Positions 1,071 through 63,676 of a stretch of 64,000 nucleotides of DNA are shown here, one piece after another. The translations under genes and the position numbers were made by a program. This stretch comes from Mustelus asterias (taxonomy: Eukaryota). The first letter of the stretch is position 1. Every line of letters starts with the position of its first letter. The DNA is taken from assembly GCF_964213995.1 (NCBI RefSeq), contig NC_135809.1, positions 32,426,001 to 32,490,000 of the forward strand, given 5' to 3'. The notes beneath the pieces are model-generated. The model saw nothing but the letters and a program-made list of their open reading frames with translations. It was not told the DNA's origin and ran no database searches.

Positions 1071-1401
1071 TGTGGTGAACCATCGTTGGTTCCCACTAGA
1101 TAGTACTGAGCCAGGGTCTGGCCAGTACTACAAGTATGTATATATGTTGCTGTTGGGGTTAGGGATGGGTTGTTCTACTTGTTGCTGTTGGGGTTAGGGT
1201 TGGGCTGTTACACCTTGTATTATAGTTATTATGGTACATCCCAGTCGGGCTCCGCCTCCTGGGAGAGGTATAAAGGTCACTGCTCTGTCTGGGACCCCTC
1301 AGTTTGGGATCGTGTACTATACTTAGTAGCATTGTTGTAACAGTAAATAAAAGCCTTTATTTCCTGAGCATCTCAAGCCTCGTGTGTGATAACGCGCATC
1401 A
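1071..1401 (+). mobile_element. Solo LTR (331 bp) of a Gypsy family related to the element at 42345-47032
   Basis: TG...CA ends; 5-bp TSD GTAAG (1066-1070 / 1402-1406); TATAAA about 1269 and AATAAA about 1346; clearly similar to the LTRs at 42345 and 46735. Confidence 0.93.
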
Positions 1402-5133: not shown

Positions 5134-5464
5134 TGATGCGCGTTATCACACACGAGGCTTGAGATGCTCAAGGAAATAAAGGCTTTTATTTACTATTACA
5201 ACGAAGCTACCATGTATAGTACACGATCCCAGACTGAGGGGTCCCAGACAGAGCAGTGACCTTTATACCTCTCCCAGGAGGCGGAGCCCGACTGGGATGT
5301 ACCATAATAACTATAATACAGGTGTAACAGCCCAACCCTAACTCCAACAGCCACAAGTAGAACAACCCATCCCTAACCCCAACAGCAACATATATACATA
5401 CTCGTAGTACTGGCCAGACCCTGGCTCAGTACTACCTAGTGGGAACCAACGATGGTTCACCACA
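5134..5464 (-). mobile_element. Solo LTR (331 bp), same family as 1071-1401, inverted relative to it
   Basis: TG...CA ends; 5-bp TSD GAGGG (5129-5133 / 5465-5469); near-identical reverse complement of 1071-1401. Confidence 0.93.
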
Positions 5465-20737: not shown

Positions 20738-20801
20738 TACCAGCAAGAAAAAAAGAAAACAAAAAAAAAAAACAAAAAAAAAAAAACTTCCCCACACTTC
20801 C

Positions 20802-21163
20802 CCAACTGTCACTCTCCACTGCAGCCCGAGCAGCACTCCCACACTGAGACACCAACTGTCACTCTCCACTGCAGCCCGAGCAGCACTCCCACACTGAGAC
20901 ACCAACTGTCACTCTCCACTGCAGCCCGAGCAGCACTCCCTCACTGAGACACCAACTGTCACTCTCCACTGCAGCCCGAGCAGCACTCCCACACTGAGAC
21001 ACCAACTGTCACTCTCCACTGCAGCCCGAGCAGCACTCCCTCACTGAGACACCAACTGTCACACTCTACTGCAGCCCGAGCAGCTCTCCCTCACTGAGAC
21101 ACCAACTGTCACTCTCCACTGCAGCCCGAGCAGCACTCCCTCACTGAGACACCAACTGTCACT
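20802..21163 (-). repeat. About 7.3 copies of a 50-bp tandem monomer forming the CR1 5' UTR
   Basis: GCAGCCCGAG recurs at 20821, 20871, 20921, 20971, 21021, 21071 and 21121. Confidence 0.97.
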
Positions 21164-21279
21164 CTCAACCTTCAGGCTTTCTTCCTCCTTTCCTTGTTGT
21201 ATCCCTCAAGTAGCTAAAGCATTAGCAGACAAAGCAAACACTCCATTCACGTGACATCATTCAACTCAATGCTGTAGCT

Positions 21280-31400: not shown

Positions 31401-31976
31401 CCTGAGTAATTGAGTAAAAGACAATGGCTTGAATCTTCCAAGCAGCAGCAATCATCATCAAATTCCCCTGAGTGAGGTGCAAAGGTGGGTAAGGTTGGAT
31501 GAGGTGAGCACGTAGATAAGATAAGGTGGTAGGTGGGAGAAGTGGCTGGTGGGAAAGCTGACAGGTAGATGTGGTGGTAGTTAGGTGGGGGTGGGGTGGG
31601 GTGGGGTGGGGGCCACGCGGTGGTCAGGTCAAGTCATGTGGGTAGCCAGATGGTTGGAGGGGTAGTTGGGCTGGAGGGGTGTCAAGGCAAAGGGAGAGTC
31701 AGCTGGTCGGGGGGGGGGGGGGAATTAACTCACCCCCTGGCTGTAACCAGCCAGCCACGCGCTGGAAATTGGCATGAGGCTGATTACCAGATTGAAATTC
31801 CAACTTCGATATGATTAGCAAGGCCAGAATTTTTTAAAATTCATTTGTGGGACATGGGTGTCGCTGGCTGGCCAGCATTTATTGATGTGGAGATGCCGGC
31901 GTTGGACTGGGGTAAACACAGTAAGAGGTTTAACAACACCAGGTTAAAGTCCAACAGGTTTATTTGGTAGCAAAAG

Positions 31977-32021
31977 CCACACAAGCTTTCGGAGCTCTAA
32001 GCCCCTTCTTCAGGTGAGTGG
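31977..32021 (-). ncRNA. Minimal type I hammerhead ribozyme in the Penelope pLTR
   Basis: CAC-CUGAAGA-A-GGGGC/UUAGA/GCUCC-GAAA-GC-UU-GUG. Confidence 0.8.
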
Positions 32022-32209
32022 GAATTCTGTTCACAAACAGAGCTTATAAAGACACAGACTCAATTTACATGAATAATGGTTGGAATGCGAATACTTACAA
32101 CTAATCAAGTCTTTAAGAAACAAAACAATGTGAGTGGAGAGAGCATCAAGACAGGCTAAAAAGATGTGTATTGTCTCCAGACAAGACAGCCAGTGAAACT
32201 CTGTGGGGG

Positions 32210-42267: not shown

Positions 42268-42344
42268 ATCTCCCATCAGAAAATTGAGTACCATTTCCTC
42301 TTAACCTTTCAGGTTATTATTCACTTAGAACCAGTTTACACCAG

Positions 42345-42642
42345 TGATGCGCGATATAACACACGAGAGGCTGGATGTACTCGGGAAATAAAGGCTTTTA
42401 TTGCCAACAATAACGGAGCTACTATATACAGTATACGATCCCAGACTAAAGGGTCACCAGGCAGAGCAGTGACCTTTATACCTCTCCCAGGAGGCGGAGC
42501 CGACTGGGGTGTACCATAAGAACTATATTAACAGGTAGAACAGCCCAACCCTAACCCCAACAGTAACATATCTACAGACTCATAGTGCTGGCCAGACCAT
42601 GGCTCAGCACTACCTGGTGGGAACCAACAATGGTTCACCACA
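42345..42642 (-). repeat. 3' LTR
   Basis: TG...CA ends; PPT adjacent at 42643-42656. Confidence 0.96.
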
Positions 42643-42705
42643 TTCACCCCTCCTTTGAAAACAAAGGCCGGCGGGGTACAAAACACAGAACAATTGTTCA
42701 TCTGT

Positions 42706-45700
42706 CTATAAGTTCAAACGGTCTGGGGGACCGCACCGTCGCTGTGACCTCCTCAACACCGGCAATGACACCGGTTCAGGCAATCGCGGTGACGTTCTCT
42801 CCAAGGCGGTGTCCAGCGACTCCTCCAGTGCCTCACGGGCCGGTAGACCCCGAGATGGTGACAATCCGCTGAACTCGGGCACGCCTTGAAGTGGCGACCA
42901 TCTCCTGGACTCAGGCAAGCTGTACATGGGAGTAAGAGGGTTAAGTGGTGGTCCCGATACTGCCCGCGCCGTGTCAGGAGGGGAAATAATGGTTGGGGGG
43001 TACCTAACAGGAGGTGTGGGAGCGACAGGGGTTTCCAAGCCCCCTGCTGGCGCCAGATCTCGAATCGAGACCGTGTCCTCTCGCCCGTCAGGATATGCCA
43101 CGTAGGCATACTGAGGGTTGGCATGGAGGAGATGGACCTGTTCAACCAAAGGGTCGGACTTGCGGGTCCTAACATGCCGCCGCAGGAGGACAGGTCCTGA
43201 GTACGTCAACCAAGACGGTAATGAGGTCCCAGAGGAAGACTTCCTAGGGAATGATAACATTCTCTCATGAGGAGTAGCGTTGGTTGCCGTACACAGGAGT
43301 GAGCGTATGGAGTGGAGCGCATCAGGGAGTACCTCTTGCCAACGGGAGACTGGAAGACCTTTAGACCTCAACGCCAGTAAGACAGCCTTCCAGACTGTAG
43401 CATTCTCTCGTTCGACCTGTCCGTTACCCCTTGGGTTGTAGCTCATGGTTCTACTAGAGGCAATCCCATATGAGAGCAGGTATTGCTTCAAGTCATCGCT
43501 CATGAACGACGAGCCCCTATCGCTGTGGATATAACAGGGGTAACCGAACAGGGTGAAAAGATCACGAAATGCCTTGATAACCGTGGCAGCGGTCATATCA
43601 GAACAGGGAATGACAAAAGGGAATCGTGAGTACTCATCAACCACATTGAGGAAGTACACGTTCCGATCTGTCGAGGGAAGGGGGCCCTTAAAGTCCACAC
43701 TCAGTCTTTCGAAGGGACGAGTGGCCTTAACGAGGTGTGCCCTGTCAGGTCGGTAGAAGTGCGGTTTGCATTCCGCGCATACCCGGCAGCTTCTGGTTAT
43801 GGACCTGACATCCTCCACCGAGTAGGGTAGATTCCGGGCTTTTATGAAGTGGTAGAGCCGAGTGACCCCCGGATGGCAGAGGTCATTGTGGAGAGCCTGC
43901 AATCGATTCTCCTGCATACTAGCGCATGTTCCACGCGACAGGGCATCCGAGGGCTCGTTGAGCTTCCCTGGACGATACATGATATCATAATTGTAGGTGG
44001 AGAGTTCGATTCTCCACCTCAAAATCTTATCATTCTTGATCTTACCCCGTAACGTGTTGTTGAATATGAACGCCACGGACCGCTGGTCCATGAGCAGAGT
44101 GAACCGTTTTCCCGCCAAGTAATGGCGCCAATGCCGGACGGGCTCCACAATGGCCTGGACCTCCTTTTCCACCGCCGAATGTCGAATTTCAGGGCCTTGG
44201 AGGGTGCGAGAGAAAAAGGCGACGGGCCTGCCCGCCTGGTTAAGTGTGGCGGCCAGGGCGAAATCAGATGCATCACTCTCCACCTGGAAGGGGATGGACT
44301 CATCGATAGCGTGTATCGTGGCTTTCGCGATGTCGGCTTTTATTCTCGCAAAGGCTAAGCGAGCCTCTGTTGCTAGGGGAAAAGAGGTAGATTTGATGAG
44401 CGGACGGGCTTTGTCCGCGTAATTGGGAACCCACTGTGCGTAGTATGAGAAGAAGCCTAAACATCTTCTCAGCGCTTTGACGCTAGTGGGCAGGGGAAGT
44501 TCGAGGAGAGGACGCATACGGTCTGGATCAGGGCCAAGGACCCCGTTTTCCACCACGTATCCAAGGATAGCTAGGCGGCGCGTGCGAAATACACACTTCT
44601 CCCTGTTGTAGGTCAGATTCAGGCGAGATGCAGTGTGTAAGAATCTAAGAAGGTTGGCATCATGGTCCTGCTGGTCATGGCTGCAGATGGTGACGTTATC
44701 CAGGTACGGGAAGGTAGCCCGCAGTCCGTTCTGGTCCACCATTCAGTCCATAGCACGCTGGAAGACCGAGACCCCTTTCGTGACACCAAAAGGAACCCTT
44801 AAAAAATGGTACAGGCGACCATCCGCCTCAAAGGCCGTGTATTGTCGGTCCTCTGGGCGAACGGGGAGCTGGTGGTAAGCAGCCATGGTACTGCGCAATC
44901 TGATTGACCATGTCAGATATGCGCGGGAGGGGATACGCATCCAGCTGCGTGTATCTGTTAATGGTCTGACTATAGTCTATGACCATCCGGGGTTTGTTCC
45001 CATTCTTAACCACCACGACTTGCGCTCTCCAAGGACTAGCGCTAGGTTGGATGATCCCTTCCTTGAGGAGCCGCTGAACTTCAGATCGAATGAAGATCCG
45101 ATCCTCAGCGCTGTAACGCCTGCTCTTTGTTGCGATGGGCTTGCAGCCTGGCACGAGATTCTGGAATAGGGAGGGTGTTGTAATCCTAAGCGTTGAGAGA
45201 CTACATGTGGAGCGCGTTGGGCAATTTAGAGGCTGCGGGTCTCCCACTGAAAGCGGAGGGAGTGGCCCATCGTACTGCAGGGTTACACTCTTCAAGTGGA
45301 CCATAAAATCTAGTCCTAGGAGTATTGGCGCACAAAGGTGCGGTAACACAAGGAGCCTGAAGTTCTCGTAAACCGTGCCCTGCACCGTCAGATTGACCAT
45401 GCAACTCCCTAGCACGGTGACAGACCGGGACCTTGACGCCATCAAAATTGTCTACTTGACAGTCCGAATCTGGAGACCACACCGCTTCACGGTGTCTGGG
45501 TGAATGAAGCTCTCCGTGCTCCCGCTGTCAAACAAACAATAAATCGGGCGTTTGTTTACCTGTATGTCCATCATGGACTTGTCGAGTCTGTGAGGCTTGG
45601 CCTGGTCCAGGATGATCGACGCCACCGTTGGTTCGTGGGTGCAACTGCAGGCAGCTGAGATGGTTGATGACAACCCCTGCTGGTCATTCGCGATCGGTGC

Positions 45701-46678
45701 CGACCAAAATGGCTGCCCCCATAGGTCGCACGTGGACGATGGCGCCAAAACCTGCGGCCCCTGCAGGTCGCACGTGTCTTGCGACTCCGTCGTTCAGAAT
45801 GGTGACGTCCTGGAATCGCACATGGTAGAAGACCTTGAAGATGCAGAAGACAAGGAGGCCGGCTCCGGGGAGTCACACGCCGCACTGCTGTTCTTGGATT
45901 GAAGTTTGGACCGGCATACCTTGGAATAGTGCCCCTTCTTGCCGCAGGCGGAGCACAACACCACTTTAGCTGGACATCGCTGCCGAGGGTGTTTCACCCC
46001 CCCACAGAAGTAACACCGCGGGCCACCTGGAGCTGCTGTCGTCGTCAGGTCCGAGGCTGGGAACGCAATCGCGCAGTTTTTCGGTCCCGCTGAATGAAGT
46101 GGAGTCTGTGACTGCCCCTGCCACGCTGTCTCCACGTGGTCGTCGGGGTACATCGCCAGACTTTTGGAGGCAGTTTCTAGAGCATCAGCTAACTCTATGG
46201 TTTTAGTGAGATCGAGGTTACCTTGCTCCAACAGCCGAAGGCGGATGTACGACGAGCCGATTCCCGCCACGAACGCATCTCGAGCTAGGTCGTTCATGTA
46301 CTGGTCTGCCGACACTGACTTGCAGTTGCAGGCTCTGGCTAGCTGCTGAAGCTTGCACGCGTACTGTTCCGTCGTTTCGCCGGGCTGCCGCCGTCGAGTG
46401 GCTAGAAGGTATCGAGCATGGATCTCATTCGGCGGTTTGTTGTATCGCTTCTTGAGGAGCTCGAGGGCCCCTTTGTAGTCGGTGGCCCCACGGATCGCTC
46501 GGTATACAGCGTCGCTTACCCTCGCGTGGAGGACCCGGAGTCTGTCGGCGTCGTCGGTGACCGCTGTGGAGGCGTTGAGGTAATCCTGGAAACACTTCAA
46601 CCAGTGGTCGAAAGTGTTCGATGCTCCCGCCGCACGTGGGTCCAACGTAAGCCGTTCGGGTTTAAGCATTTGCTCCAT
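42706..46678 (-). pseudogene. gag-pol polyprotein; originally one ORF, now three in-frame stops and one frameshifting deletion in RT
   Basis: Double CCHC CYFC..H..CPA..CSAC..GH..C; protease LFDSGS; RT YLDN; RNase H ESDASD; integrase HPG..CRVC, VDFKGP, HSDRG, ERENA. In-frame stops at 45794, 45452 and 44743; deletion near 44885 removes the first RT catalytic Asp region. Confidence 0.92.
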
Positions 46679-46719
46679 GTTTTCTTTGTCGTTTTGTTTT
46701 CAAAAAAAAAGAATTTACT

Positions 46720-46733
46720 TGTTGGCAATAAAA
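46720..46733 (-). promoter_or_regulatory. Non-tRNA primer-binding site, complementary to the element's own LTR
   Basis: TTTTATTGCCAACA, 1 nt downstream of the 5' LTR, is the reverse complement of LTR TGTTGGCAATAAAA (46786-46799); no TGG start. Confidence 0.7.
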
Positions 46734-46734
46734 T

Positions 46735-47032
46735 TGATGCGCGATATAACACACGAGAGGCTGGATGTACTCGGGAAATAAAGGCTTTTATTGCCAACAG
46801 TAACAGAGCTACCATATACAGTATACGATCCCAGACTAAAGGGTCACCAGGCAGAGCTGTGACCTTTATACCTCTCCCAGGAGGCGGAGCCGACTGGGGT
46901 GTACCATAAGGACTATATTAACAGGTAGAACAGCCCAACCCTAACCCCAACAGTAACATATCTACAGACTCATAGTACTGGCAAGACCATGGCTCAGCAC
47001 TACCTGGTGGGAACCAACAATGGTTCACCACA
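46735..47032 (-). repeat. 5' LTR
   Basis: TG...CA ends; TATAAA and AATAAA on the minus strand. Confidence 0.96.
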
Positions 47033-47858
47033 ACCAGCAGACGAACATCACCTTCCTCCGTGCCTGAGCACCAATGAATTGTAAAGATACATGTTTGCAT
47101 GTTAGAATGTGCTCATGAATTTGAACTGAAGTTTAATTACGTTGCTTAAAGGGCACAGTAATTAATAGGAACCCTTTACCGAATATCCATTCCCAACGAA
47201 GTATCAATTGATTTACTTGCATTCAAATGAGTTACTCTCCATGAATTCCACAGCAGAGTTCCCTGAGTGTGCTCAAACATTCAGGTGACTTCACATATAA
47301 CAAAGCTTGTGAGAAGCATATTTTTTTGTTTCAGGAAGCTTTTAAAAAAAAAACTCAAGTCATAACATGGTTCTAGTTTATTTTTAGTAAATTACTCAGT
47401 TTATGCTTTAGTAAATTGTTCGAATCCGCTTATAGTCATCCCAGAATTGCTTTTGCTCCATTTCTCAAATGGAATAAACATTCTCTTACACATCAGGGAA
47501 AAAAAGACACAAGCTTCTTTCTATTGTTTTCCATTGGAAAAGGGTAATAACTGAATATCATGTAGTGGCAATAATATGATGCAATTATACTGAAACAAAT
47601 GACAGCTACCATTTTACCCAATGACTTTTATCGACACTGCGACACACTCAGCTGTCATGGTACTCAATATCAGACAGAAGTGCCTGAAGCACTGAAGTTT
47701 GATTCTTCCTACTATTCTTACTCTATTTCAATTAGTGGCAAAATGATTTTGCCTTTTCTATTGATCTAATAGGTTGCTGTTAGACATTAGTTTGACAGTC
47801 CTGTGCTGCAGCTTGGCAATCTTTCTGTAAGGTTAACAAAGGAGGTGACGTTAGAGAG

Positions 47859-63282: not shown

Positions 63283-63676
63283 AATGTGGAGATGCCGGCG
63301 TTGGACTGGGGTAAACACAGTAAGAAGTTTAACAACACCAGGTTAAAGTCCAACAGGTTTATTTGGTAGCAAAAGCCACACAAGCTTTCGAGGCTCTAAG
63401 CCCCTTCTTCAGGTGAGTGGGAATTCTGTTCACAAACAGAACTTATAAAGACACAGACTCAATTTACATGAATAATGGTTGGAATGCGAATACTTACAAC
63501 TAATCCAGTCTTTAAGAAACAAAACAATGGGAGTGGAGAGAGCATCAAGACAGGCTAAAAAGATGTGTATTGTCTCCAGACAAGACAGCCAGTGAAACTC
63601 TGCAGGTCCACGCAACTGTGGGAGTTACAAATAGTGTGACATAAACCCAATATCCCGGTTGAGGCCGTCCTTGTGT
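63283..63676 (-). mobile_element. 5'-truncated Penelope copy (3' pLTR + tail), same family as 31885
   Basis: Matches 31885-32265; TSD GTGGC(T/C)GCTCTA (63271-63282 / 63677-63688). Confidence 0.92.
63376..63420 (-). ncRNA. Minimal type I hammerhead ribozyme
   Basis: CAC-CUGAAGA-A-GGGGC/UUAGA/GCCUC-GAAA-GC-UU-GUG; stem II pairing retained despite sequence change. Confidence 0.8.

What the first reader, a model, noticed from the sequence alone, without database searches (positions are those of the whole stretch)
46715..46803. Gypsy element with no tRNA PBS: LTR-complementary, putatively self-priming site covering the poly(A) signal
Seen: on the sense (minus) strand the 5' LTR ends ...GCGCATCA and is followed by A-TTTTATTGCCAACA-A-GTAA, not by the TGG of a tRNA PBS. 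This is the exact reverse complement of LTR TGTTGGCAATAAAA (14 bp, extending 4 more bp over a bulge; 15 bp against the 3' LTR copy at 42396-42410), with a 52-nt loop. The 3' end of the LTR segment pairs 1 nt from the LTR boundary, which is the geometry of a minus-strand primer. Known: self-priming is established for Tf1/sushi chromoviruses, where the first 11 or so nt of the mRNA anneal and RNase H cuts. Inference: this element has a Mag-like double-CCHC Gag, a 5-bp TSD and no evident chromodomain. Its pairing segment lies 65 nt downstream of the TATA box and contains AAUAAA. It may therefore be a distinct self-priming mode that also masks the 5' poly(A) signal.
Basis: partly seen in the sequence, partly recalled or inferred. 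Interest (0 to 1): 0.8.

Follow-up and report, generated by a model that had tools for sequence, protein, structure and literature searches.

The report
Self-priming Gypsy clade, internal RNA primer
This jumping gene, like most of its relatives examined from this shark-like genome and from metagenomes, has at its primer site a match to its own end-repeat instead of to a tRNA, so it likely starts copying itself with a piece cut from inside its own RNA, a variant of a trick proven only in a yeast element.

Summary
Confirmed and clade-wide. The window holds a decayed 4.7-kb Ty3/gypsy element whose PBS position (46720-46733, one base past the 5' LTR) is the exact complement of an LTR segment ending at the poly(A) hexamer (46786-46799). 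Pairing was at least 12 of 13 in 129 of 142 own-genome loci and 37 of 51 metagenome loci, against 0 of 710 and 1 of 255 shuffles. It holds across 28 different segment sequences. Two other Gypsy groups in this genome have TGG primer sites and no such match. A conserved TATA and initiator put the segment about 38-52 nt inside the transcript, unlike Tf1's 5'-terminal primer; this is predicted, not mapped. At least 39 palindromic LTR insertions, most with 5-bp TSDs, fit a plus-strand strong-stop DNA that ends in a copy of this self-primer. The clade lacks a chromodomain and mostly has YxDN in RT. Cleavage, the primer's source (5' or 3' R) and poly(A) masking are untested. The scan noted the same clade reading earlier on two other genomes. 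New variant of a known kind; interest 0.62.

The parts
47033..47037 (-). 5-bp target site duplication, upstream copy
   Evidence: identical to 42340-42344
46735..47032 (-). 5' LTR, 298 bp, TG...CA
   Evidence: 97.7% identical to the 3' LTR
46863..46870 (-). TATA box (predicted promoter)
   Evidence: present in all 16 own-genome segment types, 83-87 nt before the segment end
46833..46840 (-). Initiator-like motif; predicted transcription start near 46837
   Evidence: found 31-34 nt after TATA and 51-54 nt before the segment end in 15 of 16 types; not mapped on RNA
46786..46799 (-). Putative self-primer segment; contains the AATAAA (46787-46792) and the conserved G at -10 (46795)
   Evidence: complement of the PBS; -1 A in 28 of 28 types, -10 G in 27 of 28
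46735..46785 (-). Loop: rest of R plus U5, the predicted template of minus-strand strong-stop DNA
   Evidence: inference; C at +2 in 28 of 28 types
46734..46734 (-). 1-nt spacer A between LTR and PBS
   Evidence: 167 of 179 loci read ATTT after the LTR and none reads TGG
46720..46733 (-). Primer-binding site complementary to the element's own LTR
   Evidence: covariation across 28 types
45794..46678 (-). gag with two CCHC knuckles
   Evidence: homologues; zf-CCHC weak hits in relatives
44828..45793 (-). protease and RT N-terminal part, broken by in-frame stops in this copy
42706..44742 (-). RT C-terminal part (YLDN motif), RNase H and integrase; no chromodomain; in another frame than the upstream part
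42643..42660 (-). polypurine tract
42345..42642 (-). 3' LTR; segment copy at 42396-42410, with no PBS downstream to pair with
42340..42344 (-). 5-bp target site duplication, downstream copy
5134..5464 (-). solo LTR of related subfamily B, 5-bp TSD
   Evidence: its internal-linked relatives covary
1071..1401 (+). solo LTR of related subfamily C, 5-bp TSD
   Evidence: its internal-linked relatives covary

Best explanation
This is a Ty3/gypsy retrotransposon of an animal clade in which the primer site pairs with a segment of the element's own LTR, and it likely self-primes: the RNA is predicted to start about 52 nt before the end of that segment, which would fold onto the PBS and likely be cut at its 3' edge to give the primer. 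SHOWN: 13-17 bp of Watson-Crick complementarity beginning one base past the LTR; covariation across families; no TGG primer site; integrated palindromic LTRs joined exactly at the PBS. INFERRED: (1) transcription from the TATA/initiator; (2) co-transcriptional pairing in cis of nt ~38-52 with the PBS; (3) cleavage after the terminal A by the element's RNase H, by analogy with Tf1; (4) a short minus-strand strong stop (the loop, 35-72 nt across types) that jumps through the 10-30 nt of R between the cut and the poly(A) site; (5) plus-strand strong-stop DNA ending in a copy of about 15 nt of primer. That copy drives the second jump and keeps PBS and segment matched. Sometimes it anneals to its own or a sister strand's R segment instead and extends to the U3 end, giving a duplex with two integrase ends (the palindromes). 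SPECULATIVE: the same duplex hides the 5' AAUAAA, and only in the 5' LTR.
For: At least 12 of 13 pairs in 129 of 142 own-genome and 37 of 51 metagenome loci, against 0 of 710 and 1 of 255 shuffles. There are 28 distinct perfectly paired segment types, with 2-4 pair types at 12 of 13 positions; cross-type pairing averages only 8.2 of 13. Five compensated positions separate subfamilies A and B. A one-site compensated change marks a young lineage in 9 of 9 internal-linked copies, and L178 has a compensated AATAAA-to-ATTAAA change. Pairing ends sharply: 22, 21 and 6 of 28 types at -14, -15 and -16. Controls in the same genome: 15 of 18 other Gypsy loci with LTR pairs show TGG, and all 18 self-match at only 7-10 of 13. 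The self-complementary elements are spread through one RT-RNase H group (SH-aLRT 99, quick tree). Palindromes: 39 of 40 scored places match the full junction; 29 of 30 fetched have both arms reaching the LTR start, and 24 of the 27 parsed with both arms have an exact 5-bp TSD; their arms share subfamily alleles. Stem probability exceeds 0.8 in 28 of 28 types. Precedent: RNase H cuts Tf1 RNA after the paired 11 nt (PMC7175516 passage), and about half of Tf1 cDNA keeps a single-stranded PBS copy (PMC11042837 passage).
Against: No RNA evidence for the start, the cut or the poly(A) site. The 28 types were chosen for perfect pairing, so that count shows diversity, not frequency, and types are related. 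Most metagenome LTRs lack a TATA at the own-genome spacing, so the internal position is argued from one genome. Discordant copies did not separate a 5' from a 3' primer source. In L074 and L126 the 5' segment and PBS share private complementary changes that the 3' LTR lacks; primer copying alone does not predict this. A crude test found no Tf1-type accessory duplexes: loop z below -2 in 1 of 28 types and leader-U5 pairing at p<=0.05 in 2 of 28, although Tf1 needs them. Palindromes could also arise by template switching at the inverted repeat after the second jump.
Confidence: 0.62

Rival explanations
1. 3'-end self-priming: the segment copy in the 3' R pairs with the PBS (circular or dimeric RNA), the tail past the hexamer is cut or trimmed, and the genome's own 3' end primes; the first jump is then a fold-back.
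For: The segment ends at the poly(A) hexamer in 24 of 28 types, and both LTRs carry it. Covariation and palindromes are predicted equally well. L067 (PBS allele of another lineage, both LTRs and gag native) fits either source.
Against: The 5' copy lies about 52 nt from the PBS and pairs with probability above 0.8 in local folding, so it should win over a partner 4.4 kb away (inference). I found no precedent in the papers read.
Confidence: 0.14
2. Ordinary Tf1-type priming: transcription starts at the first base of the segment, so the primer is the capped 5'-terminal 13-16 nt and the upstream TATA/initiator is not the start used.
For: The paired length is tightly 13-17 nt, as a 5'-terminal primer would give. 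Most metagenome LTRs show no TATA at fixed spacing.
Against: In the 16 own-genome types TATA lies 83-87 nt before the segment end, with an initiator-like motif at +31-34 in 15. A TATA-like motif 25-30 nt before the segment is not conserved between subfamilies A and B. A poly(A) hexamer within the first 15 nt of the transcript would be odd (own knowledge).
Confidence: 0.12
3. The duplex only hides the 5' poly(A) signal; the primer is an unidentified host RNA binding here or elsewhere.
For: The hexamer is inside the paired segment in 24 of 28 types, and the geometry would act on the 5' LTR only. A full comparison with the host tRNA set was not run.
Against: A host RNA would not track 28 different PBS sequences that each match their own LTR. 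None of 179 loci has TGG. Four types lack the hexamer and still pair. No G-U or mismatched pair is shared by independent own-genome copies. Rfam finds nothing in 46600-47100.
Confidence: 0.07
4. The match is kept by DNA-level correction of a short inverted repeat (template switching or gene conversion) and has no priming role.
For: L074 and L126: the 5' segment and PBS co-change while the 3' LTR does not.
Against: It does not explain the fixed 1-nt spacing from the LTR end across hosts, the lack of any tRNA site in families that transposed recently (98% identical copies), or the TSD-flanked palindromes. It may contribute to the covariation without replacing the function.
Confidence: 0.05

Closest known systems
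Tf1/Tf2 (Schizosaccharomyces pombe) and the Tf1/sushi chromoviruses
   Same: Ty3/gypsy element whose PBS is complementary to its own LTR, with no tRNA; in Tf1 the primer is copied into a single-stranded PBS tail (passages of PMC7175516, PMC10085805, PMC11042837).
   Different: No chromodomain here. The primer is predicted to lie at nt ~38-52 rather than nt 1-11, is 13-17 bp long and ends at the poly(A) hexamer. No pretzel signal in a crude test. RT mostly YxDN. Relation to chromoviruses was not tested by tree.
TAR lineage of plant Ty1/copia (Houba, Osr-1)
   Same: Self-priming predicted outside chromoviruses (PMC6317226 passages), so an independent origin has precedent.
   Different: Copia superfamily, plants; primer geometry not seen in the passages read.
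Mag lineage of Ty3/gypsy
   Same: Animal hosts and no chromodomain; double CCHC and 5-bp TSD are recalled as Mag features.
   Different: The Mag-like group in this genome (label recalled from its motif and PBS) has a TGG primer site and YLDD, is 27-31% identical in RT-RNase H, and branches apart.
Saci2/lennie clade of flatworms (PMC12471100)
   Same: Single Gag-Pol ORF and PBS sequences that vary between families; a schistosome homologue falls in our clade.
   Different: All Se_Saci2 elements have 4-bp TSDs and the author assigns their PBSs to tRNAs. The PBS figure (Suppl. Fig. S6) was not readable as text, so identity is not excluded.
Skipper elements of dictyostelids (PMC5006619)
   Same: Pyrimidine-rich sequence replaces the TGG primer site.
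   Different: The authors found no complementary region in the LTR, and Skipper elements are chromoviruses (passages).

Membership tests
Ty3/gypsy LTR retrotransposon | LTRs with TG...CA, TSD, PPT, gag then PR-RT-RNase H-IN | tested here: met
   best solved relative is Ty3 Gag-Pol, E 2.7e-62 for homologue P0003
Tf1/sushi self-priming chromoviruses | PBS complementary to own LTR, not to a tRNA 3' end | tested here: met
Tf1/sushi self-priming chromoviruses | chromodomain at the integrase C terminus | tested here: not met
   no Chromo hit in the window ORF or in 10 Pol homologues; none of the 17 Chromo matches in G000 has Pol similarity within 1.5 kb
Tf1/sushi self-priming chromoviruses | self-primer at the extreme 5' end of the mRNA | tested here: inconclusive
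   TATA and initiator predict a start 51-54 nt before the segment end; no RNA ends were available
Tf1/sushi self-priming chromoviruses | three-duplex pretzel structure | tested here: inconclusive
   crude folding test negative in 26-27 of 28 types; pseudoknots not modelled
Tf1/sushi self-priming chromoviruses | RNase H cleavage releasing the primer | not testable with these tools
   needs biochemistry
Tf1/sushi self-priming chromoviruses | RT phylogeny inside chromoviruses | not tested
Mag lineage | two CCHC knuckles in Gag (feature recalled) | tested here: met
   two Cx2Cx4Hx4C motifs in the translation
Mag lineage | tRNA PBS starting TGG (feature recalled) | tested here: not met
   0 of 179 loci
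Mag lineage | RT phylogeny inside Mag | tested here: inconclusive
   separate from the in-genome group labelled Mag-like from recall; no named Mag reference on the tree
Saci2/lennie clade | 4-bp TSD (PMC12471100) | tested here: not met
   5-bp TSDs in the window and in 24 of 27 palindromes parsed with both arms

The most novel reading that the evidence does not exclude
A chromodomain-less animal Gypsy clade with a YxDN reverse transcriptase evolved self-priming independently of Tf1, using an internal primer. One duplex both supplies the primer and hides the 5' poly(A) signal, and the copied primer tail produces a class of integrase-inserted palindromic LTRs in the host genome.
Probability: 0.3. 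Interest if true: 0.82.

Novelty: new variant of a known kind. Interest (0 to 1): 0.62.

Why it matters
Self-priming is proven in Tf1 and predicted for its chromovirus relatives and one plant copia lineage. A further case, with Pol homologues named from elasmobranchs, cnidarians, a nematode, a flatworm, a crinoid, a tunicate, a mollusc and butterflies, would show that escape from tRNA priming recurs; the PBS itself was tested only in G000 and in unnamed metagenome hosts. Such elements would not be exposed to tRNA-fragment control of the PBS (inference), and annotation that requires a tRNA PBS would mislabel them. An internal primer raises testable questions: how the RNA is cut, how a jump through very short R works, and whether the duplex solves the 5'-LTR polyadenylation problem. 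The palindromic insertions are a genomic record of a reverse-transcription intermediate and a source of about 280-bp inverted repeats in a vertebrate genome.

Tried and rejected
(1) RNA ends: no RNA holder listed. Only contigs could be laid, and the listed loose ends showed no poly(A) tail, so nothing is concluded. (2) viral contigs: 31 pattern matches, none confirmed. (3) Source of the primer from discordant copies: markers in 30 E, 12 F and 34 D copies were too noisy. I fetched 20 whole elements. In 8 of them (L120, L131, L133, L143, L149, L164, L171, L173) the 5' segment differs from the 3' copy at a site where the PBS agrees with the 3' copy, as post-insertion change would give under my selection. 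LTR differences did not cluster usefully; 6 of 20 were not parsed and 2 alignments were spoiled by insertions. A direct search for subfamily recombinants was not achieved. (4) Heterologous palindrome arms as a ruler of primer length: only L280/L288 (one duplicated insertion) differ much, so this is inconclusive. (5) In-genome chromovirus for comparison: none found. (6) The ESM Atlas gave generic RT/RNase H clusters only. (7) A 3' splice-site reading of the G at -10: AG occurs in only some types (A at -11 in 12 of 28), so it was rejected as a general rule. (8) Strict need for the poly(A) hexamer: rejected, 4 of 28 types lack it. (9) Host tRNA set and tRNA halves: not compared; the argument rests on covariation. 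(10) Papers not held: DeMarco 2004, Esnault and Levin 2015, Lin and Levin 1997, Levin 1996. Butler 2001, Goodwin and Poulter 2001 and Repbase entries were not seen. Searches listed no paper that I could identify as describing self-priming, YLDN or palindromic LTRs for this clade; I read passages of 10 listed papers and only the listings of the rest.

Full report
Observation. The minus strand carries a 4,688-bp LTR element: 5' LTR 47032-46735, 3' LTR 42642-42345 (97.7% identical), a 5-bp TSD and a PPT at 42643-42660. Gag has two CCHC knuckles. Protease, RT, RNase H and integrase follow; in this copy they are broken by stops and a frame change. Relatives in G000 lie in open frames of 1,300-1,400 aa, so the breaks are probably decay. 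One base past the 5' LTR, 46733-46720 is the exact complement of 46799-46786, which ends in AATAAAA. The loop is 52 nt. The predicted fold contains the stem, but the 181-nt region is not more stable than shuffles (z -0.71).

Covariation in the own genome. The family is large: 3,267 first-look candidates, and the top 40 are 97-100% identical. The two solo LTRs in the window (5134-5464, 1071-1401) have different segments. Of 30 loci fetched for subfamily B, 10 are linked to internal sequence; their PBS matches the B segment at 15 of 15 positions in 8 and with one mismatch in 2. It differs from subfamily A at five compensated positions. Subfamily C behaves the same way. Gag homologues at 59%, 53% and 41% identity, used as queries, brought further families with the same layout; in L178 the hexamer itself is ATTAAA with a matching PBS. 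In a young lineage differing from C at one segment position, 9 of 9 internal-linked copies carry the compensating PBS base.

Distant relatives. A gag alignment found 77 metagenome loci at 30-71% identity to its lead sequence. Their hosts are unnamed; on the tree they mix with proteins named from cnidarians, a nematode, a flatworm, a crinoid, a tunicate, a mollusc and butterflies. An automatic test took any CA within 130 nt of the gag start and scored the 13 nt after a 1-nt spacer against the LTR. It gave 13 of 13 in 92 of 142 own-genome loci and 31 of 51 metagenome loci, and at least 12 in 129 and 37. Shuffles reached 12 in 0 of 710 and 1 of 255, and never 13. I dropped 39 of 181 own loci and 26 of 77 metagenome loci that lacked a gag start or 260 nt upstream. 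Several kept loci are the same or near-identical insertions, so these are not independent counts. Among 28 distinct perfectly paired segments (one register-shifted copy left out), pairing extends to -14 and -15 in 22 and 21 and drops to 6 at -16. A at -1 (28 of 28), G at -10 (27 of 28) and C at +2 (28 of 28) are conserved. AATAAA or ATTAAA is present in 24 of 28. None of 179 loci has TGG after the LTR.

Controls. Twenty of the 150 Ty3/gypsy RNase H matches in G000, chosen mostly for long frames, fall into two other groups with YLDD where the motif was read. Of the 18 with an LTR pair, 15 show TGG within a few bases of the LTR end; in 3 the boundary was not reached. All 18 self-match at only 7-10 of 13. 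A quick RT-RNase H tree of 47 rows separates these groups from one group of 37 rows (SH-aLRT 99) through which the 11 self-complementary rows are scattered (the careful search did not finish, midpoint root, no chromovirus or named reference). No chromodomain was found in the window ORF or in 10 Pol homologues, and none of 17 Chromo matches in G000 lies beside Pol. The RT motif aligned with Ty3's YLDD is YLDN. Asn replaces the second Asp in 83 of 103 homologues with a readable motif, of 120, and in 24 of 28 metagenome loci with one, of 77.

Where the primer lies. In all 16 own-genome types a TATA box sits 83-87 nt before the segment end, and in 15 an initiator-like motif lies 31-34 nt after it and 51-54 nt before the segment end. 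The segment is therefore predicted at nt ~38-52 of the RNA. In Tf1 it is nt 1-11 and two accessory duplexes are needed (passages of PMC7175516 and PMC10085805). The central stem has mean pair probability above 0.8 in 28 of 28 types, but a crude test found no accessory duplexes. No RNA data fixed the start. The 12 nt after the segment are identical between subfamilies A and B/C while both flanks diverge, as expected if this is the short R used for the first jump; the same motif could also just belong to the poly(A) signal.

Palindromic LTRs. Three of the 80 places scored in the solo-LTR searches were an LTR followed by an inverted LTR; 0 of 30 loci were in a later search. With one natural junction as query, 39 of 40 scored places matched the whole junction. 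Of 30 fetched, 29 have a full LTR, the spacer, and an inverted LTR running from the segment back to the LTR start; one is truncated. Of the 27 parsed with both arms, the TSD is an exact 5 bp in 24, 6 bp in 1, one mismatch in 1 and absent in 1. The two arms share subfamily alleles. The TSDs indicate integrase, and ends at the LTR start indicate a plus-strand strong-stop template. The simplest reading (inference) is that this DNA ends in a copy of the primer, anneals to an R segment of itself or a sister strand, and extends to give two U3 ends. Tf1 cDNA is reported to keep such a single-stranded PBS copy (PMC11042837 passage). A template switch at the inverted repeat after the second jump is not excluded.

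Results against or unresolved. Whether the primer comes from the 5' or the 3' R was not settled. L067 has native LTRs and gag but the PBS allele of a sister lineage; this fits primer copying from another RNA or a single point mutation. L074 and L126 have a 5' segment and PBS that co-changed while the 3' LTR did not. Primer copying does not predict this, so DNA-level correction or chimerism may add to the covariation. Poly(A) masking is untested and not universal.

Comparison and novelty. It likely works like Tf1 self-priming but is not filed as a Tf1/sushi member, because the chromodomain test failed and phylogeny was not tested. It does not group with the in-genome elements that I label Mag-like from recall. 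Saci2/lennie has 4-bp TSDs (PMC12471100: abstract, parts 1-2 of 8, passages; its PBS figure was not readable). Self-priming outside chromoviruses has been predicted for TAR copia (PMC6317226 passages). I also read passages of PMC3601003, PMC6934838, PMC6238403, PMC5006619 and PMC13524379; none described this layout in the passages shown. Nine paper searches listed nothing I could identify as this clade's priming, but Butler 2001, Goodwin and Poulter 2001 and Repbase were not seen, so a prior mention is possible. Two earlier notes of this scan reached the same clade-level reading on other genomes; they are unchecked AI notes and were seen after my tests. A word search for palindromic LTRs among scan notes found none.

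Verdict. Real, clade-wide, most likely self-priming (about 0.88 summed over the three self-priming variants; 0.62 for an internal 5'-R primer released by cleavage). New variant of a known kind; interest 0.62.

Noticed in passing
G000 loci L066, L151, L259-L288 (e.g. G000:C16:45756982-45757102): At least 39 palindromic insertions of LTR + A + inverted LTR, most of those parsed with 5-bp TSDs; a lower bound for subfamilies B/C only.
   Followed up: yes
L047 1367-1946: Palindromic LTR whose junction lacks the PBS and about 18 further nt of the inverted arm, yet has a 5-bp TSD.
   Followed up: partly
window 42706-44742 and homologues P0001-P0120: RT catalytic motif is YxDN rather than YxDD in 83 of 103 homologues with a readable motif, although families with 98% identical copies show recent transposition.
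   Followed up: partly
window 46795 and equivalents: G at -10 from the segment's 3' end (C at PBS position 10) is kept in 27 of 28 otherwise divergent types; role unexplained, possibly RT or RNase H recognition.
   Followed up: partly
L074/L372 and L126/L378: 5' LTR segment and PBS share private complementary changes absent from the 3' LTR.
   Followed up: partly
own-genome families: Predicted start to segment end (51-54 nt) about equals segment end to PBS (49-54 nt in 15 of 16 types); not so in metagenome relatives (loop 35-72 nt).
   Followed up: no
L199, L200, L201, L222, L245: Relatives whose paired segment has no AATAAA or ATTAAA; their poly(A) signal is unknown.
   Followed up: no
L262 1216-3120: Palindromic LTR directly followed by an internal fragment and another LTR; nested insertion or a different by-product.
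   Followed up: no
L319-L330, L335-L338: Another young Gypsy group with 1,100-2,000-aa frames and a T run between the LTR and its TGG primer site.
   Followed up: partly
G000: Only 17 chromodomain matches among 64 candidates and none beside Pol; chromodomain-bearing Gypsy elements may be rare or absent in this genome (search not exhaustive).
   Followed up: partly
window 20752-21219: Tandem array with a 50-bp period.
   Followed up: no
window 31885-32184 and 63284-63583: 98% identical repeat of at least 300 bp, 31 kb apart, unrelated to this LTR.
   Followed up: no
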